Shown in pieces: positions 381 to 51,602 of a DNA stretch of 64,000 nucleotides; within the stretch, counting starts at the first letter, position 1, and the number at the start of each line of letters is the position of its first letter. Source of the stretch: Eledone cirrhosa (lineage: Eukaryota); NCBI GenBank assembly GCA_964016885.1, contig OZ024744.1:21948001-22012000 (forward strand), written 5' to 3'. Both the position numbers and the translations under genes were made by a program. The notes under the pieces were generated by a model. That model ran no database searches, was not told the origin of the DNA, and saw nothing but the letters and a program-made list of their open reading frames with translations.

Positions 381-608
381 TGAATTGTGGCTATCAGAGA
401 AATATATTTAACTGTAATGAAAGAAGTAAATTATGAAATGTTGACTTTTGTTTATATATATATATGTATTAAGATTGGTTCTTTGAAATAGCGATGTATA
501 CGGCAATATACCGTATGTTTAATTAAAAACATTTAGAAGACCATACGCTATCGGTTTTAATGTACTGACTATGTCACTTACTTCTTTTCGCCGAAAGACT
601 GGAGGGAA

Positions 609-648
609 GCTAACAGTCTGTTTCACACTGGTTGGCGATCTTCAGAGC
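609..648 (-). ncRNA. Minimal type-I hammerhead ribozyme
   Basis: Minus strand reads gct-CTGAAGA-tcgccaaccagtgt-GAAAC-agact-GTT-agc; stem I gct/agc. Confidence 0.65.
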
Positions 649-804
649 AACGCACCCCCATATTAAATTAGGTACTATGTATTAATCCTAATACCTAATT
701 TTTTCTGCATACCTAATTTTTGCTGTATAATCAGATCCTGATTATTACTGGAATTCTATAAGAATCCAGCTTCTATAATTTTCGGTCGAAGCAGGGGGTG
801 CGTT

Positions 805-844
805 GCTCTGATGATCGCCAACCAGCGTGAAACAGATTGTTGGC
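805..844 (+). ncRNA. Minimal type-I hammerhead ribozyme
   Basis: gct-CTGATGA-t-cgc-caacca-gcg-t-GAAAC-agatt-GTT-ggc. Confidence 0.65.
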
Positions 845-965
845 TTCTCTCCATTCTTTCGCCGAAAAGAAGTGACATACTCACTACATTAAAACCGATA
901 ACGTATGGTCTTCTAAATGTTTTTAATTAAACATACGGTATATTGCCAAATATACTATGCATACA

Positions 966-1000
<35 letters not shown>

Positions 1001-5363: not shown

Positions 5364-5539
5364 ACAGATTAAAGTTTAAGCAAATAATCGCTGCTTTCAC
5401 CCTTAATGGGATCTTCTGAAACTAATAAAATCAATCTATGGACGCAGAAGTAAATATTTCGAAAAACGTTGCAACCGAAGGAAAACAGGAAGACGATACT
5501 TTGGTTCGTGAAGACGTTCCTTGGTAAGTTTATTAGAAG

Positions 5540-6900
5540 ATAGATTTGAGATTCTTTTTTCAACATTACTGACTATAGCATTTTTAACGTTAATAGGGTG
5601 GTTAGATTTAAAATTAACATAATTTAGATTCTCATTGTCTTTATGGTAAGGGTAATATAGGCCGGTGTCAAGATTAAGGGATATATCCAGGAAGTTAGCT
5701 AGTTTGACGTTGTTTTCAAATTCAATTTTTAGGTTATGGTGCTTAAATAGATCAAGTATATTATTCTTAATAATATTAAGGTTAACTAAGTTATAGTTTA
5801 AGACAGTAAAAAGGGCATCATCGTCACGATACATTCCACCGCGAAGTTGAGGAATTTTCTGATTTAAAGAATTCAAAATAAAGATTCCACTCAAGTCCGT
5901 CAATTGCACTGAATCCGACGAACCCATTGTGATATCAAAATTGTTGGAAGGATCAGCTCTAGTCCAATATTCGTTGTTGAATTCCAGGATAGTTTTTCTT
6001 GCGGTGAAAATGATGTACAGTTCATCTGTGGTGATGTCAGAATATTTAAATCCAAAAGAGAGAGCGTTGTTGAGAAATGAAGGCGAAATAGAAGTATAGT
6101 AACTGGCAATGTCAAACTGAATACATTTTTGTTTGTTTTTATTATTCAGGTCATTGAACCAGTTAATTACATCAGATGTACCAATCCATAAATTTAAGTT
6201 AGAAATAGAGCAATTAGAACGAATCTGTGGGATAATTCTATCCAAGATGGATTTACTAACAACCCCCAGATCTGATTTAGAGGGGGCGATTAGTCTAACA
6301 GGCAGGTCAGTTCGAAAGTTACTTTTGTGATTCTAAAGATTTATCCTCGGAGTTCTTGGGAAGAATGGTTCGGTCTTTTTCTCGATGCCAAGTTTAGACA
6401 TAATCTCAGAAGCTTCCAAGTTTATAGATTCCAAATTCTCATGGTTAGTTTTGCGGTAATTCTTCCTTAGTTCATTAAGGATAAGGTTATTATATTTATT
6501 TTTAGATACACCATATAAAATATTAGTTTTGTCGGAATGGACTAAGACTTTTATAGAAGAATTAAGGTCCGAAATCGTATTCCTGAGATTTAAAAGGTGC
6601 TCCTGTCCTCTATAAGGGTTTCTCTTGAATTTAAGTCCTCTTATAATATTAGTTAGTTCTTCCTCAAACTGTGCTAGATTTTTTATTGAAAGGAGGATTT
6701 CTTTTAGAGTTAAATAAATAATCAAAATTGTTATGTTCCTTAGTATAAAAATTTCCTTTTAAGCGCTGGTCATGAAAAAAAGCGATCCGTCTAAGCCTTC
6801 TCACAAAAGAGTCAGTTTTTTCAATCAGAAGTTTAGTGAATTCAGATTTACCAGGGATAGGAATGTTTTTAAGTGAAGTTGTGAATTTTTTCTTTCTTCT
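5540..6900 (-). mobile_element. Penelope-like element RT ORF, disrupted and 3'-truncated
   Basis: Motifs SLKNIPIP, HSDKT, FDIASYYTSI, ITMGSSDS, MYRDD, NFLDISLNL, YVNFKSNHP; stops and frameshifts at about 6330 and 6730. Confidence 0.9.
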
Positions 6901-8499: not shown

Positions 8500-11400
8500 A
8501 CACACCACTACACTACACACAGACCGCACTACACCACACCAAACCACACCACACAACACTACACTACACACACACCGCACTACACCACACACCGCACTAC
8601 ACCACACCAAACCACACCACACTACACTACACTACACACACACTGCACTACACCACACCAAACCACACTACACTACACCACACTACACCACACTAAACCA
8701 CACTACACCACACCACACCACACTACACTACACTACACCACACTACACTACACTACACTACACTACACCACACCACACTACACTACACTACATCACACCA
8801 CACTACACCACAACACACCACACTACACCAGACCACACCACACCACACTACACAACACCACACTACACCACACTACACTACACCACACTACACCACACTA
8901 CACCACACTACACTACACCACACTACACCACACTACACCACACTACACCACACAACACCACACCACACCACACCACACTACACTACACCACACTACACTA
9001 CACCACACTACACCACACTACACCACACTACACTACACTACACCACACTACACCACACTACACCACACTACACCACACAACACCACACTACACTACACCA
9101 CACTACACCACACTACACCACACTACACTACACCACACTACACCACACTACACCACACTACACCACACTACACTACACTACACCACACTACACTACACCA
9201 CACTACACCACACCACACCACACTACACTACACCACACTACACTACACCACACTACACCACACTACACCACACTACACTACACTACACCACACTACACCA
9301 CACTACACCACACTACACCACACAACACCACACTACACTACACCACACTACACCACACTACACCACACTACACTACACCACACTACACCACACTACACCA
9401 CACTACACTACACTACACCACACTACACCACACTACACCACACTACACCACACAACACCACACTACACTACACCACACTACACCACACTACACCACACTA
9501 TACTACACCACGCTACACAACACTACACCACACTACACCACACAACACCACACCACACCACACTACACCACGCAACACCACACTACACTACACCACACTA
9601 CACCACACTACATCACACTACACTACACCACACTACACCACACTACACCACACTACACCACACAACACCACACTACACTACACCACACTACACCACACTA
9701 TACTACACCACGCTACACAACACTACACCACACTACACCACACAACACCACACCACACCACACTACACCACACCACACCACTACACTACAACAACAAACA
9801 CCACACTACACCACACTACACTACACTACACCACACTACACCACACCACACCACTACACTACACACTACACCACACCACACTATACCACACCACACTACA
9901 CTACACTACACCACACTACAACACACTACACCGCACCACACCACACCACACCACACAACTACACTACACCGCACCACACCACACTACACTACACTACACC
10001 ACACTACACCACACTACACCCCACCGCACCACACCACACTACACTACACCACACTACACCACACTACACCACACTACACCACACTACACCACACCACACT
10101 ACACCACACCACACCACACTACACTACACCACACTACATTACACTACAACACACTACACCACACTACACCACACTACACCACGCCACACCTCACCACTAC
10201 ACTAACCACACCACACCACACCACACCACACTACACTAAACCACACCACACCACACCACACTACACCACATTACACCACACCACACCACACCACACTACA
10301 TTACTCCACACTACACTACACCACACTACACCACACCACACTACACCACATTACACCACACTACACTACACCACACTACACCAAACTACACCACACTACA
10401 CTACACTACACCACACTACACCAGACTACACTACACTACACCACACCACACTACACCAAACTACACTACACTACACCACACTACACCACACCACTTCACT
10501 ACATACTACACCACACGACACTATACCACACCACACTACACTACACTACACCACACTACAACACACTACACCACACCACTCCACACCACACCACATCACT
10601 ACACTACACCGCACCACACCACACTACACTACACTACACCACACTTCACCTCACTACACCACACTACACCACACTACACCCCACCACACCATACTACACT
10701 ACACCACACTACACCACACTACACCACACTACACTACACTACACCACACTACACCACACTACACCACACCACACTACACCACACTACACCACACTACACT
10801 ACACCACACTACACCACACTACACCACACTACACTACACTACACCACACTACACCACACTACACCACACTACACCACACAACACCACACTACACTACACC
10901 ACACTACACCACACTACACCACACTACACTACACCACACTACACCACACTACACCACACTACACTACACTACACCACACTACACCACACTACACCACACT
11001 ACACCACACAACACCACACTACACTACACCACACTACACCACACTACACCACACTATACTACACCACGCTACACAACACTACACCACACTACACCACACA
11101 ACACCACACCACACCACACTACACCACGCAACACCACACTACACTACACCACACTACACCACACTACATCACACTACACTACACCACACTACACCACACT
11201 ACACCACACTACACCACACAACACCACACTACACTACACCACACTACACCCCACTATACTACACCACGCTACACAACACTACACCACACTACACCACACA
11301 ACACCACACCACACCACACCACACTACACCACACCACACCACTACACTACAACAACAAACACCACACTACACCACACTACACTACACTACACCACACTAC

Positions 11401-14400
11401 ACCACACCACACCACTACACTACACACTACACCACACCACACTATACCACACCACACTACACTACACTACACCACACTACAACACACTACACCGCACCAC
11501 ACCACACCACACCACACAACTATACTACACCGCACCACACCACACTACACTACACTACACCACACTACACCACACTACACCCCACCGCACCACACCACAC
11601 TACACTACACCACACTACACCACACTACACCACACTACACCACACTACACCACACCACACTACACCACACCACACCACACTACACTACACCACACTACAT
11701 TACACTACAACACACTACACCACACTACACCACACTACACCACGCCACACCTCACCACTACACTAACCACACCACACCACACCACACCACACTACACTAA
11801 ACCACACCACACCACACCACACTACACCTCATTACACCACACCACACCACACCACACTACACTACTCCACACTACACTACACCACACTACACCACACCAC
11901 ACTACACCACATTACACCACACTACACTACACCACACTACACCAAACTACACCACACTACACTACACTACACCACACTACACCAGACTACACTACACTAC
12001 ACCACACCACACTACACCAAACTACACTACACTACACCACACTACACCACACCACTTCACTACATACTACACCACACGACACTATACCACACCACACTAC
12101 ACTACACTACACCACACTACAACACACTACACCACACCACTCCACACCACACCACATCACTACACTACACCGCACCACACCACACTACACTACACTACAC
12201 CACACTTCACCTCACTACACCACACTACACCACACTACACCCCACCACACCATACTACACTACACCACACTACACCACACTACACCACACTACACTACAC
12301 TACACCACACTACACCACACTACACCACACCACACTACACCACACTACACCACACTACACTACACCACACTACACCACACTACACCACACTACACTATAC
12401 TACACCACACTACACCACACTACACAGACACCACACTACACTACACCACACCACACCACACTTCAACACACTACACTACATCACACTACACCACACCACA
12501 CTACACTACACCAAACTACACCACACTACACTACACTACACCACACTACATCACACTACACTACACTACACCACACTACACCACACTACACAACATCACA
12601 CTACACCACACTACACCACACCACAACACACTAAACTACATTACACTACACCACGCTACACCACACCACTCTACACTACATTACACTACACCACACCATA
12701 CCACCACACTACACTACACCACACTACACCACACCACACTACACCACACTACACTACATCATACTACACTACACCACCCTACACCATTCTACACCACACA
12801 CACCATACTACACCACACTACACTACACCACACTTCACCACACTACACTACACCACACCACACCACACTACACTACAATACACTACATCACACCACACTA
12901 CACCACACTACACCACATTACACTACACCACACCACACCACACATCACACCACAGCACACCACACCACACTACACCACACCACAACACACTACACCACAC
13001 TACACCACACTACACAACACTACACTACACCACACCAAAACACACCACACTACACTACACTACACTACACTTCACCAAACCACACCAAACTACACCACAC
13101 TACACAACACTACACTACACCACACTACAGCACACCACACCACACCAGACTACACTACACCACACCACACCACAATACACGACACCACACTACACTACAC
13201 CGAACTACACCACACCACACTACACCACACCACACTACATTACACTACACTACACTACACTACACTACACTACACTACGCTACACTACACCACACTACAC
13301 TACACCACACCACACCACACCACACTACACCACACCACACTACACCACACCACACTACACTATACTACACCACGCTACACAACACTACACCACACTACAC
13401 CACACCACACTACACTACATTACAATACACCACACCACCACACCACATTACACCACACTACACTACACCACACCACACTACACTACATCACACCACACTA
13501 CACCACCCCACACCACACTACACTACATTATACTACACCACACCATACCACCACACTACACTACACCACACTGCACTACACTACACTACACCACACTGCC
13601 ACACCACATTACACCACACTACACTAAACCACACCACACTACACCACATTACACTACACCGTACTACACCATACTACACTACACCACATTACCCTACACC
13701 ATACTACATTACACCACGCTACACCACACTACACGATACTACACCACACCACACCACACCACACTACACTACACCACACTACACCACACTACACCACACT
13801 ACACTACACCACACCACACTACACCACACTACACCACACTACACTACACCACACCACACTACATCACACTACACTACACCACACCACACTACTCCACACT
13901 ACACCACACTACACTACAATACACCACACTACACCGCACTACACCACACTACACCACACTACACCACACCACACCACAGTACACTACATTACACTACATC
14001 ACACCACACCACCACACCACACTACACCACACTACACTACACCACACCACACTACATCACACTACACTACACCACACCACACTACTCCACACTACACCAC
14101 ACTACACTACAATACACCACACTACACCGCACTACACCACACTACACCACACTACACCACACCACACCACAGTACACTACATTACACTACATCACACCAC
14201 ACCACCACACCACACTACACCACACTACACTACACCACACCACACTACATCACACTACACTACACCACACCACACTACTCCACACTACACCACACCACCA
14301 CACCACTATATAATACATACACTACACTACACCACACAAACCACACTATGACACCATATTACACCACAACACACAACACCACTCCACTCCTATCCAATCC
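8500..14400. repeat. (YACAC)n pentamer satellite, about 5.9 kb, with higher-order duplications
   Basis: CACAC/TACAC units; marker variants recur at a 1561-bp period (9781/11342, 10491/12052) and a 193-bp period (13861/14054/14247). Confidence 0.95.
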
Positions 14401-14489: not shown

Positions 14490-14561
<72 letters not shown>

Positions 14562-14904
14562 TAAACGGAATAGAAAATGCTGACAAATTGTTCACAGTTG
14601 AAACATGGTTTAATTAGGAATAAAAGAGTATTAGTGATTGTATGGGTTAGTATACAGTTGTGGTTTTATGTTTTTAAGTTTTTACCGGTTGCGCATTTCT
14701 AAATGCTTTTCAAAAATAATTGTGAGATAGAGTGTCCGTGCTGTTTGCTCTGATCTATATATTTATATATACATGTATATATTTATATATATATTTATAT
14801 GTCTATTTATATTTATGTATGTATATATATATATCAATATATATATATATATATATATAGATATATATATATATACAGTATGCATATATTGATATATATA
14901 TATT

Positions 14905-18787: not shown

Positions 18788-19600
18788 ACTTATACTTCGT
18801 TTTACATCATCTAGCTGGTCCCTTGAATGGAACTAGAGATATACAAAAGCGTGAAGTACTTAATATTGCTAACATAAATTTATTGGACCATTTTACACAA
18901 CCAATAATGCACCTTACTATATAACAACTATATATATATATATATATATATATGTACAAGGTGGATTCTCGTACTCTGTCGTTTAACGCGACGAAAATAT
19001 GCTCTGGTCTTCATCCCACCCGTGCCAGTATAGAAAAATGGACGTGACACCGATGGCAACGTTTGATCTAAATTAAGTAACTGTATTCTAAATTCAAATA
19101 TTAATCCAAGTTGTTTGCTCCTTATTTTCTCTCTCTCTCTCTCTGGGTCAGTGAAGTCAATAAAATACATAACAGAGGTGACATTGATATCTATTTAATC
19201 ACTTATACTCTTTAAACTCTTACAAGAGTCTTGTTGTAGCAGTGAAACGACGTCATTAAAAAAGAGATACTTTTTATTTAAAAAAAAAGTATCTAGAAGT
19301 CCACCTTATAAGCCTCATTAAGAAAAAGAAAGAGAAAAAACATAGATCAAAGTAGCTTATATTCAATAATAGTGATTAATCTTTGTTTTATGTATTGTAC
19401 TCAAGATTGAGCACAATCAAAAATACATTTCTTAAAGGCATTAAACCATGGAAGTGTAGGGATAATTGTGACAGTCATAGGTTCGGTTGTTACGGCTATT
19501 TGTTAATAGGTCATAGAAAATCTGGATGGGAGCTCATGCTAACAGTGGAAACTCTACTTCGTTGCTCGACCTACTAGGCAGAACAGCCAAACAGATATTA

Positions 19601-19601
<1 letters not shown>

Positions 19602-19631
<30 letters not shown>

Positions 19632-19725
19632 CTTCTTCTTCTTCTTCTTCTTCTTCTTCTTCTTCTTCTTTTTCTTCTTCTTCTTCTTCTTCTTCTTCTT
19701 CTTCTTCTTCTTCTTCTTCTTCTTT
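19602..19725. repeat. (TTC)n microsatellite
   Basis: Visible directly. Confidence 0.95.
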
Positions 19726-20886
19726 CGGAGGCGTCTTGGCGGACGTCTACTGCAACTGGCAACAGAACGGGAGAATTCCCAGCTCTGTGAGCCGAGGAGC
19801 CGTGGCGCTACTGAGAAAGGATCCGAACAAGGGGGATAACATAGATAATTTCAGGCCCATAACTCTTCTAAACACAGAGTTCAAGATTGTGGCCAAGGTG
19901 CTAGCAAAGGGGTTGGCGCTTGTCGTTGGTGGTCTGGTAGGAGAGGCGCAGACATGCGCCATTCCCGACAGATCCATCCCCGACAACCTCCATCTCATGC
20001 GATACATCGTAGAGAGGGTAGCTAGGGAACCTAGCACGGTGGGTCCTTGATCAATTTAGATCAGTCGAAAGCTTTCGATAGGGTCGACCATCGTTACCTA
20101 GCGGCAGTCCTGAGGGCGGCTGGCTTTGGGCCCGTCTTCAGAGGCTGGATCGCTGCCATGCACAGCGACATCTACTCTGTGGTGAGAGTGAACGGTCACT
20201 TTTCGGAACCGTTCAATATCATGCGCTCGGTCCGCCAAGGATGTCCCCTCTCGTCCCTCTTGTACGTAGTGACTCTCGAGCCATTACTGCACAAACTAGA
20301 GACGTTGAGGGGGGTCCCACGCGAACTAGGATGCGGAAGATCCGTGTCAGCATATGCGGACGATGTCACCGTAGTGGTGTCGAACGCCAAACACATCGAG
20401 GCGATCGGCACTACACTAAGAGAATACGAAGCGGTGACAGGAGCAATGATCAACCAGGAAAAGTCAGTGGGCCTGCAGTTCGGCACCTGGAGAGGCAGGT
20501 CCATGCCGTCCAACAGCGTCGTCGGGCGCTGGACGGACGGACCGGTTAAATTGCTAGGGGTCTGGTTCGGTCCAGACCTCCAGACGGACAAAAACTGGCA
20601 CGAGGTGACGAGCAGGGTGGCTTCTCTCACCCAGAAATGGGCCGAGAGGATGTTATCCCTGAAAGGTCGAGCGGAGGTGGCTAACGCGTACATCGCGTCC
20701 GTCATCTACTACCGCCTGACCGTCGTGCCTTGTCCTAAGCCTCGCCTGACGGCGCTGGAACGTTTGCTCTTTCGCTTTTTGTGGAAGGGACGCCCTCCGA
20801 TGGTCTGGCCGTCCATCTGCTGTCAACACCCGCTACGTGGAGGGCTGCGCATGCCGTGGCTGATGATGCGTAGACACGCGCTCAGG
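19726..20886 (+). mobile_element. Tx1/L1-clade LINE RT fragment
   Basis: NFRPITLLNTEFKIVAK, LDQSKAFDRVDH, SVRQGCPLS, AYADD; homologous to 28580-29710. Confidence 0.95.
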
Positions 20887-22494
20887 GTTCAAGCCTGTTG
20901 GGTGTGCTAGCGATCTCATACATGGACAGCCTCGAGTGCAAGGCATTCAACAGCTGCCACCCCAACGCAGTCGCCTTTTTCTCAAGGTACGTGGACGACA
21001 TCCTCATCCTCACATCTTCCCAGGAGATGGTGAACGGAATTTATCAGCCGTTCAACAACACGGACGAGAACATTGATTTCAGTGTTGAACACCCCAGCGA
21101 CGACGGGTCACTTGCTCTCCTTGACTTCCGAATCAACATCACGGAGCAGGGAGGGATCCACACCAACTTCTACCGCAAGGCAGCCTGCAGGGACTTGTTC
21201 GTCCAATACAAGTCTGCCCTCCCTAACAGTGCTAAAAGAGGGTACATCACGAACGGGATCACGCGAATTAAAAACAGATGCAGCGGTCCCATGAGTGGTG
21301 TCACCCACACCAAGCGATTCCTCAAAGTGCTGGAGACGAACGGGTACCCTGCCTCGCTCACAAACAGAGTAAGAGACACCAGACGCAAGAGGCAGAGAAA
21401 CACCAAAGGTAAGTGCTTCCTTAAAATACCACACCTGGGCGATAATACCACGAACGCTATCCGCAGGGCTATACGGAGAGAGGGCCTCGACATCCCCTTG
21501 GCCCACTCGGGCCCCTCCCTGCGAAGATTCCTCTCCAGGAAATTCGGGAAATCGACTGACGCGTGTTCCCTCAGAAACTGTCCGATGCGCCATACGAACT
21601 GTTGCTTACGCACATATGTCGTGTATAAGGTAGAATGTGACAAGTGCAACCACTACTATATCGGTAGCACAATCCGGCCGCTACACATCCGGATCAACGA
21701 GCACATCAACACCAGAGCCTCGTCTTTCCGGAAACACATAACCAAATGCGGAAACAAAGACGGAAGGCCCATTGTCACAGTGCTAGCGACAGAACGCAAC
21801 GTCGGCACGTTACGAATCAAGGAAGCACTTTGGATCAAACGCCTAGGGCCACAAATAAATAACCGATCCGAGAGAAGCGAAATGAGCTGGTGGTGTAAAC
21901 AAACGAGACAACAACGCATGCAAACACACACATTGTAGCATTCGAACGATTGTTATCGTGTGTGTAGCATGTCACCATCAACCGACCAGGCAGAGTACTA
22001 CCATACGAATATACTACACTGCTAGTACCAAAAATCAGCACAGATAAATAGTACAATGGATTGACAGCTAACGCGATCCCACTCCCACAATTAAAAAAAC
22101 TGCTTCGACCTTTGCTTGACCGCACTTGTTCCGCGTGCACGTGCGCTCTGCAGAATACCTCAGTTAGCCACAAACAGCGAACAGCAGAGGACACGTACCG
22201 TTCCTCTCCAACAGATAAATCCTCCCCCCCCCCAATTGATGGATGCGAATCCGAAATATAGGGACAATTAAATCTCTCCCAACGTAACTCTATCTCGTGT
22301 TATTAATTTTTACGTTCTTTCCTACGTTCTTCTACACACTATACATCACATTCTACATTCCCTTACATCTCTCTCTTCACCACCGGATCCTGTTACCCGG
22401 AGAATTACCCATCTGCATTGTTGAGCCTTCCAAAGCGACGAAAATAAAATAAATCTTATTATTCCACAATGCTTCAAGCAAACTTCAATACTCT

Positions 22495-22539: not shown

Positions 22540-22889
22540 CTAAAATACAACAATACTCTATAAAGTATTGTGTTGACATATATATACACATGTATATAAA
22601 GAAAAGATGAAGTTGGAAATAGCACGGGAGATATGTTTAAGGGTCTGTATTTTCTTTTTTGATTCGTCAAAGTCACATTATTGAAAATATAGTGTTATTA
22701 AAAAGATAGTGTTCTTAAAAGAGAGAGGGAAATTTTTTTTTGAGAATGTTTTTATGAAGTATATAAAGTGTATGAAACGATTACCGGTTTCGATGTATTA
22801 AAATCCATCTTGTCAATTTCAGTGAAAAAAGTTAATTAAAAACGGATTAAAAAAGTGTTTAAAATTAAAATTAAAATCAAAAACAAATG

Positions 22890-24304
22890 TTTGAGCAAAA
22901 TGATGGGTCTGACCAAGTCCAATACAGAGCTATTCGTCTCCAGGATGAAGCAGTGGAACTTGGTCAAGGAGGAAGTGCAGGTGACAAGTCAGAGAAGTCG
23001 ACACGAACCTTTCTCAGGCTTTTATACTCTTAGGGATGGCCTCTGCTTCTGCCATGAAGTGCTTGGACTGTTTGACGTTATTGGGGTGCCGTTTGTGCCC
23101 AAGGAGTGGCGGCTATTTATAGACAGCTCCACCACAAGTTTGAAGGCTGTCCTCCTCCATAATGGAAACAAGTTCTCGACACTGCGCCTAGCTCATTCAG
23201 TCTGCCTGAAGGAAGATTACTACAGTGTGAAAGTCCTCTCGGAAGCTCTGCAATACAACCAGTACAATTGGGAAATCATTGGAGACTTCAAGATGGTGGC
23301 TTTCTTGCTTGGACTCCAATGAGGCTTTATCAAATTCCAATGCTTCTTCTGCCTTTGGGACAGCAGAGCCACTTCTGACCACTACAAAAGAAAGAACTGG
23401 GAGCAGCGAACAGAATTTGTAGTTGGGACCCGGCACGTCCTGCGGGAGCCACTGGTTAATCCCAGGATTGTGCTCATGCCGCCACTGCACATTAAGTTGG
23501 TGTTGATGAAGCAGTTTGTGAAGGCACTCAACCAAGAATCAGCGGCTTTTAAGTACCTTCTTGAGTCTTCCCAAAGTTATCTGTGGTCAAAATCAAAGGT
23601 GGATATTTTGTTGGACCTCAGATAAAGAAGGTGTTTGAGTCTACCGAGTTCTCCAATAAGCTCAATAGGATTGAGAGAACAGCATGGAACTGTTTCAAGG
23701 CAGTTGTTAAGGGCTTCCCGGGCAACTACAGAGCTGAAAACGACCAACAACTGGTGCAGGATCTGATAAAGGCTTTTGGCGCCATGGGATGCAGGATGTC
23801 GCTTAAACTCCATATGCTGGACGCTCATCTGGAAAAATTCAAGGACAATATGGGCGCCTACTCAGAAGAACAAGGCGAACGATTCCACCAGGATGTGAAA
23901 GAGATAGAACGGCGGTACCAGGGCCACTACAATGAAAAGGTGATGAGGGACTATATCTGGGGGCTAGTGCGGGAATGCGACCTGGACTACAACCGCAAAT
24001 CAAGGAAATCCAGTCATTTCTGACGTGTATAAGTTGCTTTATAAGTGTTATTTGTTTTAACTTGTTTGCTTTTGATAAGCTTGTGTAATAAAATAAATAT
24101 ATACTCTGTTGATTTAATTATATGAACTGATAAATTTAAAAAAAATGTGTTTTTTCTTGAAAAATATGAAAATTTCGAAATATCAAACTCCTGACCACAA
24201 ACCCAAACTTCTGATAAAATAATAGTGTTTTTTTATAATAATGGGATATAACAAACCATGAAATGACACTTAGAACCGGGAAACAAAAAATATGTTACAC
24301 GGTG
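22890..24304 (+). mobile_element. Chapaev3-like (CMC) DNA transposon, decayed transposase and right TIR
   Basis: EWRLFIDSS, GDFKMV, CFFCLWDSRA, PPLHIKL, MSLKLHML..H, SEEQGERFHQD..E.RYQG; internal stop at about 23320 and frameshift at about 23570; end TGTTACACGGTG (CAC terminus). Confidence 0.85.
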
Positions 24305-26629: not shown

Positions 26630-29600
26630 TCACCAACAGTAACAACACAAACATTTCAAACAAAAATCCCCCCTCCTGAAAACAAAACAACGACAACACT
26701 CCAAACACAAACTCCTAGAACAAAACGAAAACACACACAAGAACAACAAAAACCAACACAACACAACAAGAACATTACACATACATAAACAGTGAAAACA
26801 AAACCCTAATAGAGGTCATCTCTAACGACCCTTAGGTGAAAACCGAAGGGAAAACTTTTTCGAACTATGTAGACAGACCCAATTTAAAGATGATTAGGGT
26901 CTCTACGGACACCTATAAGTCTTTAACGAAAAACTTTCCTAAGGACGTGGGTAATCCTTGCGTTAAACCTATTAACAGCGTCCTTTTAAAATGTTTCCCC
27001 ACCCCCACCTTATACACCCCCATCCCACTAGACAACCCCTCCCCACTAAACATCTCCCTCCCCACTAAACATCTCCCTCCCCACCCCGCCAGAAACCACC
27101 AGCCCACCAAACAACCCCTCCAACACCCTCATGGAAATTGTGCAGCCTGGTCCCCATGAGACGAAGAGGTGAGTGATTTCTTTTCCTCTTCTTTTAACTT
27201 TTCAGCACCAATATGGCCAATATAAGAGTTGGATGTGTGAATGTACGCGGCCTGGAGATGCCCTGGAAACAGGGCAAACACTTAAACGACTTCAGGTTGC
27301 ACAGTATGGATGTAGTAGCCATTTGCTAGTCCTGGATCCACAGCGAGCGACAACTGGCCCCCATCTTCGACGACTTTGAGATCTACGCATCTCTCTGCTA
27401 GCCGGGATGTGGGGGTGGGGTTGCCGTTTTGCTGCGGGAACACCTGGATCTCGTAACATAGACTGTTCATCTGGACCTGGACTGTCGACTGGTGGTCCTA
27501 GACGTTGACGGTAGTGAAGGTGGAGCCTTCAGGGTGGTGGCCGCATATGCCCCATCCGGGACACCGCGACCAGACTCCTTCAAACGACTAGAGACTTTTC
27601 TGGGAACTTCCCGCACCCTGCTATTAGTGGGGGACATGAATGGGATCCTAGATGCACGTTGGGACTAGGTGGGAGCATGTCCCGGTAGAGGGGGGGTAAC
27701 AGCCTCAAACAGTTAATCGGCCGATTTCAACTGGTCGGTAGATATCGACTAGATTTTACAACTGTGCCACTGTGGACGTGGACCAACCACAGCGGAACAT
27801 CTAGATCGTACCTAGATAGGTTTCTAGTTAGAGTTAGTGATTGGGAAATGTTAAGCTGTCCACAAATATTCATGGTTGCCTATTCAGATCACAAACTAGT
27901 GACCTGTTTAGTCAACCTTGATAGAACCCATAGACAGGGACCCGGCTACTGGTAGCTGAACTTGTCGTTACTGACATGCAAAGCCTACACTAGACGGATT
28001 AGCAGTTTCGTTAAGCAGCACTTGACAGGGGCCATTCTCAACAACAGATGGTGGTACTCTCTCAAGAGGGCAGTTAGATTAGACTCGATAGGTTTAGTAA
28101 AGAATTAGTGTAAGATATAAATAAGACCGAAAAGGAACTAGTAGATAAAGTAGAAGAGGCACTTAGGAGTGGCAACGTAGCCAGCGTGCTAGCGACGAGA
28201 ACGGCCTTGGACCAGTCCTTCGACGCAAAGCACGAAGTCTGGAGCAAAATACGTGTCAGGAGCAAAATACGTGCTCTGGGAAACGAGGGAGCCAAAGCTG
28301 TTAGCTGGGCCCGAGTGACGGAGGCGAAAAGTGGCAACAAGACGACGCGTGATTCGTGAGCCGAAGCAGATGTGCGCCACCTTTCAGCGGCACTTTGCTC
28401 AACTGTTCGGACAGGGTGGTGCGACGGTAGGGCCTATGGATTTCGGTCCATACCTCGAAGGCCTGCCGCGACTTTCGGACAGCGAGATAGGGGACGCACT
28501 GAGCCAATGCGGCAAACGCAAATCTCCAGGTCTCGACGGTCTACCCTACGAATTTTACGTAGCAATGCCGGACTTATTCTCCGGTCTCCTGAAAGCAGTC
28601 TCCTGCAACTGGCAGCAGAACAGGAGAATTCCCAGTTCTGTGACCAAGGGCGTAGTCACGTTAGTCGGGAAGGACGAGAATAAGGGCGATGACATAGGAA
28701 ACTTCCGGCCCATAAGTGCTAAACACAGAGTTACAGATGTTGGCGAAGGTGTTAGCAAAGAGGCTGGCGATTGTCGTTGAAAACCTGTTGGGCGAAGCGT
28801 AGAAATGTGCAATCCCGACCAGGTCCATACAGACAACCTCCACCTAATGCAATACATCATAGAGATGGTAGGGTGTAAACCCGTCTTCGGTGGAGCCCTG
28901 ATCAACTTGGATCAGTCTAAGGATTTCGATAGGGTTGATCATCGTTACCTGGATGCGGCGTTCGAGGCGCAGGCTTCGGACACGTGCTCAGGCGCTGGAT
29001 TGCTGCAATGCACAGCAGTAACATCTGCTCAAGGGTCAAGGGTCACGCGATCCATCCGACAGGGATGCCCTCTCTCCTCCCTTCTGTACGTACTGACTCT
29101 CGAGCCACTACTGCGGAAGTTGGAGCTATTGCAGGGCATCCCTTTGGAACCGGGACTGCGATAAGCGGCGTCGGCCAACGCCGACGACATTTCAGTAATG
29201 ATGTCGAGCACCTCGCACATCAGGTAGGTCGGCATCTTACTGAAGGAATACGAAAGGTTCACAGGAACGAAGCTGAACCGGGACAAATCCGTCGGTTTGC
29301 AACTCGGAACGTGGAGAGGCAAACCGATGCCTTCCGATGGCGCCGTCGGACGCTGGACGGAAGGACCTGTAAAGCCGCTCGGGGTCTGGTTTGGTCCAGA
29401 CCTCCAGGTGGAGAACAACTGCAACGAGGTGACGGCCAAGGTGTTTGCGATCACCCAGAAGTAGGCCGAGTGCAAACTGTCATTGAAAGGTCGAGCGAGG
29501 TGGCGAACACTTTTATAGCGTCCGTCATCTACTACCGCTTGACCGTCGTGCCTTGAAAGCCAAACCGCTCACCAAAATGGAGCACCCGCTCTTTCAATTC

Positions 29601-30790
29601 CTTTGGAAGAAACGGGGTTCTTTGGTGAGAAGATGCATCTACTGCCAACACTCTTCAAACGGAGGGCTGGGGTTCTGTGGCTGATGATGCGCAAACACGC
29701 GTTCAGGCTGCGGCACCTCCACGTGTTCCTCACCGGACAACCGGTGTGGGCCCCGTTCATGAGGCGAGCCTCACCACGACTCGTCTCGCTGACCGAGCTG
29801 CAGTCCTGGGTCAAGCAAAGATCGAGGAAAATGGGCGACTGGCACATCTAATGTGCTCAGGCGCTCACAGCCCTCTGGCAAACGGACCCGGCGGTCAGTG
29901 GAGACTCCACTTCGACATTCTATAGAGGGTTGGTCCGCAGCAGGTGCGGCGACGCGCTCGGAGAATCTCTGGCCGTAGAGGAGGACGAACTGGCCAGTCT
30001 GTTCGGTAGGACTTTCCGCCCTGGACCGATGGACAACTTCGAAAAGTCCTTGGCCTGGCAGTGCTACCGAGGAGCTCTACCCGTTCGAGACAATCTCTAC
30101 AGACACGGGCGCCCGGGCAGTGACCCTTCGAAAAAGATCTGTCCGAGATGCGTGCGCGACGAGGGCACCGTCGCGTACGCATTTGTACACTGCTCGGGCG
30201 TTACCAACCTGTGGGGCTATGTAGAACGACTATTGTCGTGGGTGAGACCAATCCAGTTGACCACCGAGTCCATTGTCATGATCAAACCGCCACCCTCCTT
30301 CAAAAACGAAAGAGAGGCGGTTTTCCTATGTGTTATCGCTATGGTGAAAGAGTTTATATGGTGGACTAGGTTAAAAGGGCTGAGGTCAGACACCTTTCTC
30401 TCCGGCGAACAACTGATTCGTTTTTTCAAATATCTTTTTGGAAGAAGAATCAGGATGGAGAGAGAGGTACTGTACCCAGCAAATTTTATGAAAGGTAGGT
30501 GAATGTGGCAAAGATGGCCCGAGTGGTTGGGCCATCTCTCTATATAAGCATGTAGGTTGAGGAAAAAGAGGAAGAGAGGAAGGGAGTACTCACTCTTGGT
30601 GCTCCTGGAGATGAGGATTGTTACATTTTTTTCGGGGTGTGTACAACCTCTGTGTAACGCCTCCCCCCTATTGGGGATTTCAATTGTTATTTGTTATTTT
30701 ATTAATAGTTTTATTTTCATATACCTATATGTAAACTCCGCATTTGTATTTGTCCCCTTCTTTTGTGCCCTTCTGGCTAATAAAAAATGT
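26630..30790 (+). mobile_element. Decayed Tx1/L1-clade LINE (possible ORF1 tail, then APE-RT-CCHC ORF2 from about 27213)
   Basis: GCVNVRGL, SYLDRFLV, YSDHKLV, GPGYW, KSPGLDGLPYEFY, IRQGCPLS, CPRC..H..C-like finger; AATAAA at about 30779; many stops and frameshifts. Confidence 0.92.
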
Positions 30791-39299: not shown

Positions 39300-42200
39300 A
39301 CACACACAGACGATAGCAACTAACAGCGCTGCGATCGAATATGGCTTTTTAGCCCAGCCAATGATCTAAAATGTCTTGCACAGAGTCGGCAACCAAAACA
39401 TTCACTGGGAATAGTCGGCTGTGGTTGGAGTTCGTGTACTTTTGCATGTCGCTTGAGCCCTCCTGCTGATTTACATTCTCTACCACATGTTTGGCAAGCA
39501 TGATGTGTAGCATCTCCAACAGCAGCCTGGTAGTCAACCACTGGTCTTACTTTATGACTGTGAAGATGACTTTCGAGTCCAGCTTTTGCTTAGGCAGAGT
39601 CTCGCACATACGTTGCATGTCAGCACCATAGGAGGACCCTCGCCGTCTGGAAGTGCAACAGCAATGCCCTTCCTCACATCCCGCTTTACTTTCTCGTATG
39701 CGATTCGAGATGCCTCAAAGGCAACTTTTCCCTCATATACAGTCTTTCTCCATTTATTACGATCAGCAGAAATATTCTCCCATGTATCAGCAGAGATGTT
39801 AGCGTCTTTCAGAGAGGCTTTCAAGGAATCCTTATACCTCTTTTTTGGTTTATGTGGCGGTCGTTTTCCTTTAACCAACTCTCCATAAAAGAGTTGTTTT
39901 GGTATTCTAGAATCCTTCATCCTGGCAAGGTGACCACTCCAACGGAGTCGTTGCTTAAGCAGAAGAGCTTCTATACTGTCACACATAGAGCTTTCCAAAA
40001 TCTCGACATCACTGATCTGGTCCCTCCAGTGAACGCCATGGATCCGTCTGAGACACATCTGATGGAAACGCTCCAATTGCTTAAGGTGGTGTCGATATGT
40101 GACCCAGGTCTCGCAGGCATAAAGAAGACAAGAGAGCACACATACCCTGTACACCTTTACCTTTGTCCTCCTGCATATATCTCGCCGACCCCAGAGTCCC
40201 CTTTCTAGCTTTCCGAAAGCATCACTTGCTTTCCTAATCCTAAGTGAGATTTCACTGTCAAGGTTGCCGTATCGATTGACAGTGCTTCCCAGGTAGACAA
40301 ACTGATCAACCACTCCAAGTCGTTTGCCATACACATAGATGTTTGGTTCAGTGTACTGCTTACCAGGGGCAGGTTGGTACATGACGACGGTTTTCTTGAT
40401 ACTGACAGTCAGACCTAGGGCAGTGCAAGCGTCAGAAAATGTATTCAAAATGTGCTGCATATCACTCTCTGTGTGCGCTACAAGATCGCAATCATCTGCA
40501 TACAAGAGGTCTCTTATGATTGATGTAAATACCTTTGTCTTCGCAGCAAAGCGCCTGATGTTAAATATGCTTCCTGAGGTTCGATATCGGATGTAAACAC
40601 CATGCTCGCAATTCCTGAATGCAATACAGAAAACCATTGCAAAGTATATGGCAAACAGGGTCGGTGCTGGAATATCCCCCTGTTTCACTCCATTTTTTAC
40701 TTAGATAGGCTCCGACATGTTACCCCCGACATTAACCCAAGCCTTCATGTTGTCATGGAAAGACCTAACTAAAGCAAGGAACTTATCAGGGCAACCAAGT
40801 TTCTGGAGAACCTTCCATAATACATCTCTGTTAACAGTATCGAAAGCTTTTGTCAGATCGACAAAAACCTGATACAGATCCAAGCCTTGTTCCATGCACT
40901 TCTCCTGGAGCTGTCTAGCTGAGAAGATCATATCAGTAGTGCCGCGTCCAGCACGAAAACCAGATTGACTTTCAGGAAGAACACAATTTCCAATGTGTGT
41001 CAGCAGACGGTCCAGAAGCACCCTACATAAAACTTTCCCTACGACAGAAAGCAATGATATACCTCTGTAGTTCCCACAATCGTTCCTGTTACCCTTTCCC
41101 TTGTACAAGACCACCATTACTGCATCTCTCCAGTCCTCAGGTACGGATTCATTAGCCCATATCCTGCTAAACAAAGAGTGAAGATGTTGCAGGAGTCTCT
41201 CACCACCATATTGTAGGAGCTCAGCATGTATGCCATCCATACCTGGAGATCTTCCACTGTTCAGCTTCGAAATAGCCACTGCAACCTCCACAAGCGTCGG
41301 AGGTTCTGCGAGAGCTACTTTCACAGGACTTTCTGGAATGAGATTGAGGAAATCTTCACTGACGACAGACGGCTGATTCAAAAGATCATCAAAGTGCTCT
41401 CGCCACCTTCGTAGAATTCCTTGTGAGTCACGAAGAAGTTATTTGCCATCCTTGCTGCGAAGCGGTGTCACCAGAGAAGAAGACGGTCCATAAACCTCAC
41501 GCAAGAGACTGTACAACAGCTTTGTCTTATTGGAATCAGACGCAGTTTGTATCTCACCAGCCTTCTCACTCCACCACTGATCCTTCATCTGAGAAAGACT
41601 CCACCTAACACGTTATTTTACATCCCCGAGTTCCTCATGCAACGTATTCCTCTCCTGTGGTTTTGCCGTCAAGTAGCATGACAGAGCACGCCTCTTATCA
41701 GCCAACAAGTCTTCTATATGTACATCATTCTCATCAAACCAGTCCTGATGTTTCCTCTGCGCCAATCCCAGAACACGCCTGCCTACATCATAAACCGACT
41801 TTTTAAGGGTCGGCCAATCCTCACCAAGATCTGCAGCCTGCATCTCTTCTTCCAATGTCCTCTTCACATTTTTATCCTTAAGACGAGCAGCATTCAATCT
41901 TTTGAGCAGGGCAACACCAGGAGCCCGGATTTTACGTTTAGTGATTAGTTTCACTTTTGCGCGTACCGGGCGGTGGTCCGTCCAGCACTCAGCTCCACGA
42001 AGAATACGAACACACTGCACATCCTGTCTGTCACGCATCCTGACTAGGACGTAGTCCAAAAGATGCCATTCCTTAGATGCAGGATGCATCCATGTGGTCT
42101 TGAATTTGTTCTTTTGTTGGAACATGGTGTTGGTAACACACAGATCCAGCTCCTCACACATCTGCAGCAGGAGCATACCATTGCTGTTACACTTTCCCAC

Positions 42201-42800
42201 CCCATGCCTTCCGATTACATTCCATGTGTTAGAATCCCTACCCACTCTAGCATTAAAGTCTCCAAGCACGATGACTTTGTCTGCCTGAGGGATATTTCTT
42301 AAAACACCTTTCAAGGCATGGTAAAAGGACACCTTTTCCTCATCGACAGAACTCATAGTTGGAGCATACACACTCACCAGGGTAGCATATCTTCCCATGT
42401 CCAGCGGTACTCTCATGGACATAAGACGCTCACTAATCCCTACTGGGAATTCTTCTAATTTGTTCACAAGCACAGTCTTAACAGCAAATCCTACCCCAGC
42501 CTCTCTTCTGGTTCCTTCATCTCTTCCTTTCCAGAAGAATGTATATTCTCCACAAAATTCCGTAAGATGATCATCTCCAGCTAGCCTCGTCTCAGACAAA
42601 GCCACGATGTCAAGATCGTAACGTCGAAGCTCCTTTGCAACAAGAGCGGTCCTTCGTTCAGGACGCCCCAAGGAATCCCTCTCAAGCAGCGTCCGTACGC
42701 TCCAGCAGCCAAGACTAAATGCCTTGTTTGGCTCTATTACAATGGCACGATGACGAGCGGGCCCAGGCTATGATAACCTGGGGCCCCTGCCCTTATTGCC
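39300..42800 (-). mobile_element. Near full-length RTE (BovB-like) LINE: APE, RT and three C2H2 fingers
   Basis: LSETRL, VYAPT, LGDFNARVG, LDYVLV, WTDH; NYRGISLL, QSGFR, FVDLTKAFDTV, KQG, LYADD; a few frameshifts. Confidence 0.97.
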
Positions 42801-48459: not shown

Positions 48460-48664
48460 CACAAACGTATATATATATAAATGTAATCGGAGCTTTTCGG
48501 AGATTTTCGAATCTTTTCGAATATTAATAACATTCGATTCGTTTGAAATTATGCAAACAAGCCGTTTTTAAGCGTGTTGGCATGTTATATATATATATAT
48601 ATATATACATTATGAAGAGAGAAGAAACGTTTAGATATAATTAGTAATAAAACTGCTCCTAGAT

Positions 48665-48754
48665 TCCTCGACTACGTAGTTTCGTGGCATAAACAAAAAC
48701 AATACATCATAAAGATATAGAGTCTTTGCGAGGTCTGCCGACTTATCAAGAGGA
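48665..48754 (-). ncRNA. Hammerhead with U3-A8 core variant
   Basis: tcctc-TTGATAA-gtcggca...tgccac-GAAAC-tacgta-GTC-gagga. Confidence 0.75.
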
Positions 48755-49019
48755 TACCTCGTTTTACTAGCTTCAAGAACGCGTCTACACGACGTGAGAA
48801 AGAATCCCAAAAGGCGGAGGGGGATATAGTCACGCGATATAACGGCCGAGAAACAGAGCTAAGCCTCTTATAACCCCGAATAAAATACCACGAAGGCGGA
48901 GGGGGTATTCATATCGAAGCCGTAGAAGAGGTGGTGAAGGGGGAGAGGAGTATGAGTAATGGCAGCTTTCCAGCAGTCACCACACTTCAAAGATTACTCG
49001 ACCAGAGGGAGTTATGAAC

Positions 49020-49360
49020 AATATATTTAGAAACACACAGATACATGCGGACACACACATATACATGAATGCATCCACATCCAACCGTGAGTTAATTGTG
49101 CCAACCTTACCGATCTTGCTCAATGAATGACTGGGACAGACCAATCCGGTTGAACTAGACTGAACCAGTATCAGTTAAATGTTTCTTCTCTCTTCATAAT
49201 GTATTTTTAACTCTGATACTGGTTCAGTCTAGTTCAACCGGATTGGCCTGTCCCAGTCATTTATTGAGCAACATCGGTAAGGTTGGCACCATTAACTCAC
49301 GGTTGGATGTGGATGCATTCATGTATATGTGTGTGTCCGCATGTATCTGTGTGTTTCTAA

Positions 49361-49367
<7 letters not shown>
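49020..49367. repeat. About 155-bp-arm fold-back at the end of TA-embedded element 48608-49367
   Basis: 49020-49173 is the reverse complement of 49214-49367; the spacer matches the element start 48608-48634 inverted. Confidence 0.9.
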
Positions 49368-49401
<34 letters not shown>

Positions 49402-49465
49402 TTAAAGGTTAAACAATGACTGAATCTTAACCATCTACTATGTCAGGGTATGTCATGCATCATCT

Positions 49466-49532
49466 TATTTTATCTGATGAGGACGTACTGTTGAATTTAA
49501 CTCAGTACCTCTGAAATATGTATAATATAATA
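49466..49532 (+). ncRNA. PLE-type hammerhead
   Basis: tattttat-CTGATGA-ggacgtactg..cagtacctct-GAAAT-atgt-ATA-atataata. Confidence 0.75.
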
Positions 49533-50021
49533 TACTTGATCACAAGAATATCTATTTTGTTAATAATTTGAATTACTATATATACATATATATATATATA
49601 TGTGTGTGTCTGTGTGTATGTATGTAAAAGCTAAACAGAAATAACAACACAATCGGTACAGTATATAGAAGGGATATATTAGGTTAAGGCTTGATATAGC
49701 ATGAAGTGGGTCTTAACGGTTCGGACGCTAGTCCTTCACCAGAAGAAAGAATGAGAAATAAGATGTGTTTTTCGAATATTAATAATTGTTTCTACATTTG
49801 GCACAAGGCCAGCAAATTACCCAGTGTATTACTGGTACTTTATTTTATCGACCCCGTAAGGATGAAAGGCAAAGTTAACCTTGGTGGGATAATAATATTC
49901 GATTCGTTTGTAATTATGCAAACAGGCCTCTTTTAAGCGATGTCAAAAGAATGAGCCCCTCATTCTTGCTCTTGCGCAAGCGTGTTAGTTTTATATATAT
50001 ATATATATACATATATATATT

Positions 50022-50099
<78 letters not shown>

Positions 50100-50230
50100 A
50101 ACGAGTAGGACCTATTACCCACTCTACTACCCTAAGTATTGAGTACTTTGGTGCTTCATGGTCCACCTGGTTCCTTACCACATTTCCTTCTTTATATATA
50201 TATATATAAAAAAAAAAATATAAAACAATA

Positions 50231-51075
50231 AAAATTAGAATTGGAGCTCTGAAATAGCAATATATATATGGATGTATATATAATGTATTTTGCAATACAC
50301 TTTATGCTTAATTAAAAGCATTTTGAAGACCGTAAGCTATTGTTTTAAAGTAGTGACAAATTCACTCACTTTGATCTCAGCAAACAGGGGAGATAAGCTT
50401 TTAATTAAGCATAAAGTGTATTGCAAAATACATTATATATACATCCATATATATATTGCTATTTCAGAGCTCCAATTCTAATTTTAATTTCTGCCTGACC
50501 AACAACCGCTCTGCATAATCAGCTCCTGATTATTTACTAGATTTCTATAAGAATATAACATCATTGATCTCAGTAGAAAGGCGGGGTAGTTGGCCTTGAT
50601 AAGCTTCAACAAAAGCGAAACATGTCATGTCGGCTTATCTCCCCTGTTTGCTGAGATCAAAGTGAGTGAATTTGTCACTACTTTAAAACAATAGCTTACG
50701 GTCTTCAAAATGCTTTTAATTAAGCAGAAAGTGTATTGCAAAATACATTATATATACATCCATATCTATATTGCTATTTCAGAGCTCCAATTCTAATTTT
50801 TAATTTCTGCCTGACCAACAACCGCTCTGCATAATCATCTCCTGATTATTTACTAGATTTCTATAAGAATATAACATCATTGATCTCAGTAGACAGGCGG
50901 GGTAGTTGGCCTTGATAAGATTCAACAAAAGCGAAACATGTCATGTCGGCTTATCTCCCCTGTTTGCTGAGATCAAAGTGAGTGAATTTGTCACTACTTT
51001 AAAACAATAGCTTACGGTCTTCAAAATGCTTTTAATTAAGCATAAAGTGTATTGCAAAATACATTATATATACAT
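50231..51075 (+). mobile_element. Retrozyme-like 316-nt tandem array (about 2.1 units) with a 5' inverted segment; hammerheads at 50593-50634 and 50909-50950
   Basis: gcc-TTGATAA-gctt-caacaa-aagc-GAAAC-atgtcat-GTC-ggc repeated at 316-nt spacing; 50231-50398 is an inverted copy of the unit. Confidence 0.88.
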
Positions 51076-51602
51076 ATATATATATATATATAATAAAATA
51101 TGGAGAAAAATACTGCAGGTAGCGCATGGATAACATGTAATAAAATGAGTCCCTCATCAGTGATTTGCCGACGATCATAGATATTTCATTGCATTAAAAA
51201 TCATATACCTCACGTCGGTGCAATAATAACTAAAATAAGTTATTAGGACAATTAAAACGCGTAAAGCGAGTGAGACAGGAGAACAACAAAGAGTATAGCT
51301 AACCGTAGGGGAATGAAACAAGCTTCATAATTATTCTGTTTAGCGTAAGCTAGGTGAATATATGAGCGCTTTAGAAAAAAGACCTTACACGAACGAGGGC
51401 CATGTGAGAAGAGAGAAAAATATAGTTTTCGTCGTGTACGGGATGAAGTGAAGAGAGGAGAAACAGTGAGTGAGTGAAAGTGTGAGGAAGAGTTAACTGA
51501 CATGACAGAGGGGGCGAAAGAAAGTAGGAGAAACAGAGAGAATGGGGGAGCAGTAAGAGAGAGAGAGAAAAACACAGAATCGCAGTTTGGGTAAATATAT
51601 GT

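What the first reader, a model, noticed from the sequence alone, without database searches (positions are those of the whole stretch)
48665..50950. Compensatory U3-A8 catalytic core (UUGAUAA) in two unrelated hammerhead families
Seen: the hammerheads at 48665-48754 (minus) and at 50593/50909 (plus) have TTGATAA in place of CTGATGA, with stems I-III largely intact and of different sequence. Established: C3 and G8 form a tertiary Watson-Crick pair in the active hammerhead, and U3-A8 is a rare natural covariant. Inference: the same double change in two families is unlikely to be decay and suggests selection for activity. Searches requiring CUGANGA would miss these.
Basis: partly seen in the sequence, partly recalled or inferred. 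Interest (0 to 1): 0.75.

Follow-up and report, generated by a model that had tools for sequence, protein, structure and literature searches.

The report
U3-A8 hammerheads in Penelope-type retrozymes
Two different jumping repeats, with hundreds to thousands of copies in this animal genome, each carry a likely self-cutting hammerhead RNA whose core pair is swapped from C-G to U-A in nearly every copy; the swap is real and inherited, but it is an already published variant, and cutting is untested here.

Summary
Three type I hammerhead motifs have UUGAUAA cores (U3 at 48749 minus; 50596 and 50912 plus). They lie in two non-coding repeats, A (593 bp) and B (316 bp), with Penelope-type insertion marks. 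U3-A8 is the family state, not decay: 4531 of 4551 A copies and 538 of 539 young B copies; no A copy has C3-G8. B's sister subfamily (window 690-978) and outgroup have C3-G8, and a tree gives one switch inside B, independent of A. The A hammerhead is identical between subfamilies (44/44 columns, 82% elsewhere). A third lineage (C/C2, over 10,000 exact matches) is also U3-A8, so the variant is common here. Limits: copy counts show inheritance of about three events; no RNA or cleavage data; a published mutational scan found only G3-C8 rescue; C2 spread despite a further core change (A13C). U3-A8 is in print, including about 1,300 motifs found through Schistosoma Penelope-like elements. This scan noted family B before on other DNA. 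Verdict: new members of a known kind.

The parts
48607..49176 (-). Family A repeat, nearly one unit (family unit 593 bp, non-coding); 3' end runs into (TA)n
48665..48754 (-). Hammerhead A, type I: U3 48749, A8 48744, GAAA from 48683, palindromic helix III, predicted cut after C17 at 48670
49213..49367 (+). Inverted partial copy of A (unit 3-157, no hammerhead) ending at the family's second 3' end point, followed by (TA)n
50234..50398 (-). Inverted partial copy of B (unit 152-316, no hammerhead core), carrying the 26-base extension
50397..51087 (+). Family B, 2.2 tandem units of 316 bp, 97% alike, ending in (TA)n at unit position 290
50592..50635 (+). Hammerhead B copy 1: U3 50596, A8 50601, predicted cut after C17 at 50631
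50908..50951 (+). Hammerhead B copy 2: U3 50912, A8 50917, C17 50947; A.G mismatch in helix II
690..978 (+). Sister subfamily of B (B-old, 71% identical) with a C3-G8 core at 808-814; inverted partial copy at 502-659
14558..14755 (-). Copy of family C2: U3-A8 core (U3 14713, A8 14708) with GCAA in place of GAAA (C13 at 14691)

Best explanation
These are type I hammerhead motifs in two non-coding repeat families whose core pair is U3-A8 in nearly all copies; they likely cut their own RNA as pairs and are likely copied by Penelope-type retrotransposon enzymes (non-LTR retrozymes). Shown: the motifs, their fixation in each family, covariation in all helices and at 3-8, one C3-G8 to U3-A8 switch inside the B lineage, tandem and inverted insertions in (TA)n with two alternative 3' ends. 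Inferred: tandem copies are transcribed; two motifs pair through the palindromic helix III; each cuts after C17 and releases a unit-length RNA (593 or 316 nt, possibly circularised); a Penelope-type RT/endonuclease copies it into (TA)n. U-A would keep the Watson-Crick geometry of the 3-8 pair, so a master copy could switch, probably through a short-lived single change, and stay good enough to spread, perhaps at a lower rate.
For: Fixation: A 4531/4551, C3-G8 0; B 538/539. Subfamilies: B-old 34/38 C3-G8, B-mid 30/33 and B-young 20/21 U3-A8; A-old 33/34 U3-A8. Tree with positions 3 and 8 masked: U3-A8 rows form one clade (100/100) nested between the C3-G8 outgroup and B-old. 9 of 12 pairs change on both sides in 14 B-superfamily rows, 95% of cells paired against 23-44% when slid. 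A-young against A-old majority: 44/44 hammerhead columns identical, 359/436 elsewhere (Fisher p 4e-4). Helix III has no stable hairpin but forms a homoduplex of -12.9 (A) and -10.5 (B) kcal/mol; the double-hammerhead fold equals the minimum-energy fold for A and lies 2.3 kcal/mol above it for B. Insertion marks. Literature: U3-A8 is natural and cited as active in vitro (PMC3088659) and was found through Schistosoma PLEs (PMC4209133).
Against: No cleavage or RNA data. [quoted passage not shown] PLE hammerheads cut slowly in vitro (PMC4209133), and cleavage was not needed for insertion in vitro by one PLE (PMC11167929). Family C2 has U3-A8 plus A13C and a weak stem I, yet 6129 exact matches. B's monomer prefers a misfold by 5.4 kcal/mol. 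No partner PLE open reading frame was found beside A or B, and no C3-G8 relative of A or C, so their switches have no direction.
Confidence: 0.7

Rival explanations
1. The fold is kept as a structural signal (for example for the Penelope protein), and cutting is weak or dispensable; U3-A8 is an A+T-ward drift step under relaxed constraint.
For: C2 amplified with A13C and a stem I of 3-4 A-U pairs while helix II still covaries. Cleavage is dispensable in vitro for one PLE. U3-A8 is not reported as a rescue in the scan. B-old to B-mid/young differences lean slightly to A+T (29-30 against 19-22, not polarised).
Against: In A and B all other core letters and the cleavage triplet stay canonical across subfamilies 71-87% alike. 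No subfamily of the A, B or C lineages had an unpaired 3-8 state as its majority; the 3-8 pair is a feature of the active fold (PMC3884650).
Confidence: 0.2
2. U3-A8 arose once in an old common ancestor of A, B and C and was inherited, with B-old and the outgroup keeping or regaining C3-G8; the families are not independent cases.
For: All are (TA)n-inserted Penelope-type repeats in one genome; no C3-G8 relatives of A or C were found.
Against: U3-A8 B rows are nested among two successive C3-G8 groups, so this needs extra reversals; A, B and C show no similarity beyond the core.
Confidence: 0.07
3. The window copies are sporadic decayed mutants of C3-G8 families, or chance matches.
For: One window copy has a helix II mismatch; C-to-T and G-to-A are common decay changes (general knowledge).
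Against: 0 of 4551 A copies are C3-G8 and 538 of 539 B copies are U3-A8; reversed-pattern controls gave 0.
Confidence: 0.01

Closest known systems
U3-A8 minimal hammerheads found through Cercyon Penelope-like elements in Schistosoma mansoni (Cervera and De la Pena 2014, PMC4209133; parts 1-2 of 4 read)
   Same: Type I, U3-A8 core at family scale (about 1,300 hits there), palindromic helix III, missed by the standard descriptor, Penelope context.
   Different: There mostly single, heterogeneous motifs with little or no helix III; here homogeneous tandem non-coding units with a 10-11-base palindrome and a traceable C3-G8 sister subfamily.
Non-LTR retrozymes of animals (Cervera and de la Pena 2020, PMC7229834, passages; Li, Clavereau and Pollet 2026, 10.64898/2026.07.22.740005, parts 1-2 of 5)
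   Same: Non-coding tandem units with one type I hammerhead each, GC below 45% (A 42%, B 35%), monomers to long arrays; unit sizes inside the 51-972 bp range reported.
   Different: Variant core; expression and circles not shown here; A is longer than the 170-400 nt of the 2020 paper.
Natural U3-A8 core variants (Perreault et al. 2011, PMC3088659; passages and section 8 read)
   Same: Same compensatory 3-8 change.
   Different: Reported as several examples; here fixed in families of thousands of copies.
Rfam Hammerhead_HH9 (RF02275, clan CL00010)
   Same: Best Rfam match for B, full model length.
   Different: 30.4 and 23 bits, below the gathering score of 52; A has no match.

Membership tests
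Type I hammerhead ribozyme | Core N3-U-G-A-N-N8-A, GAAA and NUH site around a three-way junction, stem I open | tested here: met
   positions 3 and 8 are U and A
Type I hammerhead ribozyme | Watson-Crick complementarity of positions 3 and 8 | tested here: met
   U-A in 8 and C-G in 6 of 14 rows, none unpaired; one event on the tree
Type I hammerhead ribozyme | Helices I-III supported by covariation | tested here: met
   B superfamily: 9 of 12 pairs change on both sides (rows are related). A: core helices invariant, loop II hairpin differs but pairs
Type I hammerhead ribozyme | Self-cleavage after position 17 | not testable with these tools
   needs a bench assay
Type I hammerhead ribozyme | Loop 1-loop 2 tertiary contact of fast natural hammerheads | not tested
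   no analysis made
Rfam hammerhead families (clan CL00010) | Score at or above the gathering threshold | tested here: not met
   30.4 and 23 bits against 52; no match for A
Non-LTR retrozyme | Short tandem units, each with a type I hammerhead | tested here: met
   spacings of 316-317 bp for B and 590-595 bp for A
Non-LTR retrozyme | No coding capacity, low GC | tested here: met
   longest stop-to-stop frame 85 aa (A) and 46 aa (B); GC 42% and 35%
Non-LTR retrozyme | Expressed as unit-length linear and circular RNA | not testable with these tools
   no RNA run was available to lay
Penelope-like element derivative | Partial tandems, inverted 5'-truncated copy, optional 3' extension at one end, microsatellite targets | tested here: met
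   B ends at unit 290 or 316; A ends at about 570 (23 cases) or about 157 (16 cases); features as in PMC8557442. A's extension (about 170 bases) is longer than the 30-40 described
Penelope-like element derivative | Shared terminal repeat with an RT/GIY-YIG-coding partner | tested here: inconclusive
   no linked open reading frame in the loci fetched; no genome-wide protein search was made

The most novel reading that the evidence does not exclude
U3-A8 is a recurrent, selected way of tuning retrozyme hammerheads: at least three lineages in one genome switched to it independently, it slows or gates cutting to the dimer or protein-bound state, and it opens the core to further change, so that the A13C core of family C2 (over 6,000 copies) is a working natural variant that I did not find described.
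Probability: 0.15. Interest if true: 0.6.

Novelty: new member of a known kind. Interest (0 to 1): 0.33.

Why it matters
It gives a natural matched series for a catalytic-core base pair: C3-G8 outgroup, C3-G8 sister, and U3-A8 descendants of one retrozyme lineage, plus two further U3-A8 lineages, one with an extra core change. These can be assayed side by side to ask whether Penelope-associated hammerheads must cut in order to spread. It also shows that CUGANGA-only descriptors miss at least 15,000 motif copies in this genome (sum of exact matches). The variant itself and its link to Penelope-like elements are already known.

Tried and rejected
Sporadic decay: rejected by the tallies. RNA evidence: no RNA holder listed (four runs of unrecorded kind from one study); read laying was not used, and this blank says nothing about expression. 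Partner PLE: tblastn with three window PLE fragments on all loci then held found no RT linked to A or B; the one candidate (L167/L231) was separate insertions divided by (TA)n. C3-G8 relatives of A and C: none by nhmmer in about 1.3 Mb of fetched DNA, a small part of the genome. Rfam microRNA matches are microsatellite and inverted-repeat artefacts below gathering scores. Two single U3-A8 descriptor hits (L139, L223) had no relatives and were set aside. Papers not held, so not seen: Przybilski and Hammann 2007, Lunse et al. 2017, Nelson and Uhlenbeck 2008; the in vitro activity of U3-A8 is taken second-hand from PMC3088659. No supplements or figures were seen; they may list further core variants such as A13C.

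Full report
Observation. The three motifs are there. A is on the minus strand with U3 at 48749, A8 at 48744 and C17 at 48670; B has two copies on the plus strand with U3 at 50596 and 50912. All are type I with a GUC site and a short self-complementary helix III. The 50912 copy has an A.G mismatch in helix II. Rfam places B with Hammerhead_HH9 below the gathering score and finds nothing for A.

Setting. The genome has 3.0 Gb in 1796 contigs and is rich in microsatellites. A belongs to a 593-bp unit and B to a 316-bp unit; neither codes. Both occur as single copies, partial tandems and arrays, often with an inverted truncated copy at the 5' side, and are flanked by (TA)n. Each has two alternative 3' ends: B at unit position 290 or 316, A at about 570 or 157. 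Craig et al. describe partial tandems, inverted 5'-truncated copies and an optional tail as Penelope-like marks (PMC8557442, passages), and Frangieh et al. trace the tail to two start sites of reverse transcription (PMC11167929, passages). The window also holds broken PLE coding pieces, but none could be tied to A or B.

Tally of positions 3 and 8. With both positions free and the other letters exact, A gave 4551 matches. Eight lacked U3 (4 C3-A8, 2 G3-A8, 2 A3-A8) and twelve lacked A8 (7 U3-G8, 4 U3-U8, 1 U3-C8), leaving 4531 U3-A8 and no C3-G8. B gave 539, of which 538 are U3-A8. Exact patterns favour young copies, and the copies descend from few masters, so these counts show inheritance and not thousands of selective events.

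History. A relative of B, 71% identical, lies in the same window at 690-978 and has C3-G8. Among 92 distinct B-superfamily sequences taken from first-listed or best-scoring matches, B-old had C3-G8 in 34 of 38, B-mid U3-A8 in 30 of 33 and B-young U3-A8 in 20 of 21; the rest were single changes or deletions. A profile search found a 312-bp tandem family with C3-G8 as outgroup (E about 1e-11). A tree of 43 rows (chosen from 92 with a readable core out of 95, mostly at random; positions 3 and 8 masked) puts all 24 U3-A8 rows in one clade, 100/100, among C3-G8 rows. So B switched once, after leaving its C3-G8 relatives, and apart from A, with which it shares only a 9-base word. A's older subfamily (75-79% identical) is already U3-A8 in 33 of 34; no C3-G8 relative of A was found in the fetched DNA.

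Selection on the fold. In 14 hand-picked B-superfamily rows, 9 of 12 pairs change on both sides and 95% of cells pair, against 23-44% with slid partners; the rows are related, so the shuffle control is not a probability. Between the majority sequences of 29 young and 27 old A rows, all 44 hammerhead columns are identical against 359 of 436 elsewhere (p 4e-4, columns not independent). The U3-A8 fold has thus been kept through much divergence.

How common. In 80 evenly spaced 10-kb stretches of contigs C1-C4, one descriptor gave 27 hits (0 in the reversed control); of the 25 scoring 10 or more, 18 were C3-G8, 5 U3-A8 and 2 single states. Most families in a wider, target-biased catalogue were C3-G8. 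A third lineage, C, gave 4311 exact matches, 98 of the 100 listed U3-A8. Its sister C2, with a copy at window 14558-14755, gave 6129; of the 100 listed, 98 were U3-A8 and 98 had C at position 13. Fuzzy family patterns found 21 U3-A8 cores of A, B, C and C2 in the 800 kb.

Mechanism. Helix III has no stable hairpin alone but pairs with a second copy at -12.9 (A) and -10.5 (B) kcal/mol. The double-hammerhead fold equals the minimum-energy fold of an A dimer and is 2.3 kcal/mol above it for B, whereas the B monomer prefers a misfold by 5.4. This fits the dimer model for metazoan type I hammerheads (PMC4209133; PMC7229834, passages; PMC6765202, passages). The window's A copy has no partner in cis; B has one, with the mismatch. 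Transcription, cutting, circles and copying by a PLE enzyme are inferred. That U-A is isosteric with C-G is general knowledge; the 3-8 pair in the active fold is from PMC3884650 (passages).

Against full activity. In a complete double-mutant scan of a type III hammerhead only the G3-C8 swap rescued (PMC9901934, passages). PLE hammerheads cut slowly in vitro, and cutting was not needed for insertion in vitro by one PLE. C2 shows that a family can spread with a core letter changed and a weak stem I; whether it cuts is unknown. A13C is not among the variants named in section 8 of PMC3088659 (figure not seen), and none of the 12 listed of 26 papers held both 'hammerhead ribozyme' and 'A13C'; this is a narrow search.

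What is known. Perreault et al. 2011 report natural U3-A8 and cite in vitro activity. Cervera and De la Pena 2014 found U3-A8 through Schistosoma PLEs, noted that their descriptor missed it, and retrieved about 1,300 hits. Retrozymes as non-autonomous PLE derivatives are argued in a 2026 preprint (parts 1-2 of 5). Earlier notes of this scan describe the 320-base family on other DNA of this genome, seen after my own analysis; a sequence look-up for A returned nothing.

Verdict. Real and well supported as structure; a new member of a known kind. What this adds is a polarised switch, a second and third lineage, and the C2 variant. Interest 0.33.

Noticed in passing
window 14558-14755 (-); loci L243-L248: Family C2: U3-A8 core with GCAA in place of GAAA (A13C) in 98 of 100 listed of 6129 exact matches; helix II covaries with sister family C, stem I is only 3-4 A-U pairs. 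Either a working core variant or a dead ribozyme that still spreads.
   Followed up: partly
L083:9631-9750 (-); L233-L242: Family C, a third U3-A8 lineage (UUGAAAA), 4311 exact matches, bulged stem I, two 3' end points.
   Followed up: partly
window 690-978 (+) and 502-659 (-): C3-G8 sister subfamily of B; many copies open helix II with a U.U pair in place of G-C.
   Followed up: yes
window 1464 (-), 7526 (+), 17745 (-), 18673 (+), 63238 (-): Further hammerhead candidates: four C3-G8 and one A3-G8 (7526), some as inverted pairs.
   Followed up: no
window 5436-6758 (-) and 20874-21938 (+): Broken PLE-like coding pieces; the second has a GIY-YIG domain (PF01541, E 5.6e-05). The PLE label for the first is recalled from its motifs; Pfam gave no match.
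   Followed up: partly
G000:C2 about 207,687,000-207,740,000 (L008-L030): An array of about 50 kb of family B units with small length variants.
   Followed up: no
L097:8046-9991 (-), L045:2250-2737: 312-bp tandem retrozyme family with C3-G8, distant outgroup of B.
   Followed up: partly
L168/L169 and L032:2640 (- strand count): Descriptor hits with U3-G8 cores in other families; whether these are family states or decay was not checked.
   Followed up: no
window 8506-14387: 5.9-kb degenerate array of a 10-base unit (CACTACACCA).
   Followed up: no
window 19517-20910, 28319-30502, 39552-42767, 22840-24023: LINE-like reverse transcriptase and endonuclease fragments and a transposase-like fragment, named by eye from the ORF list.
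   Followed up: no
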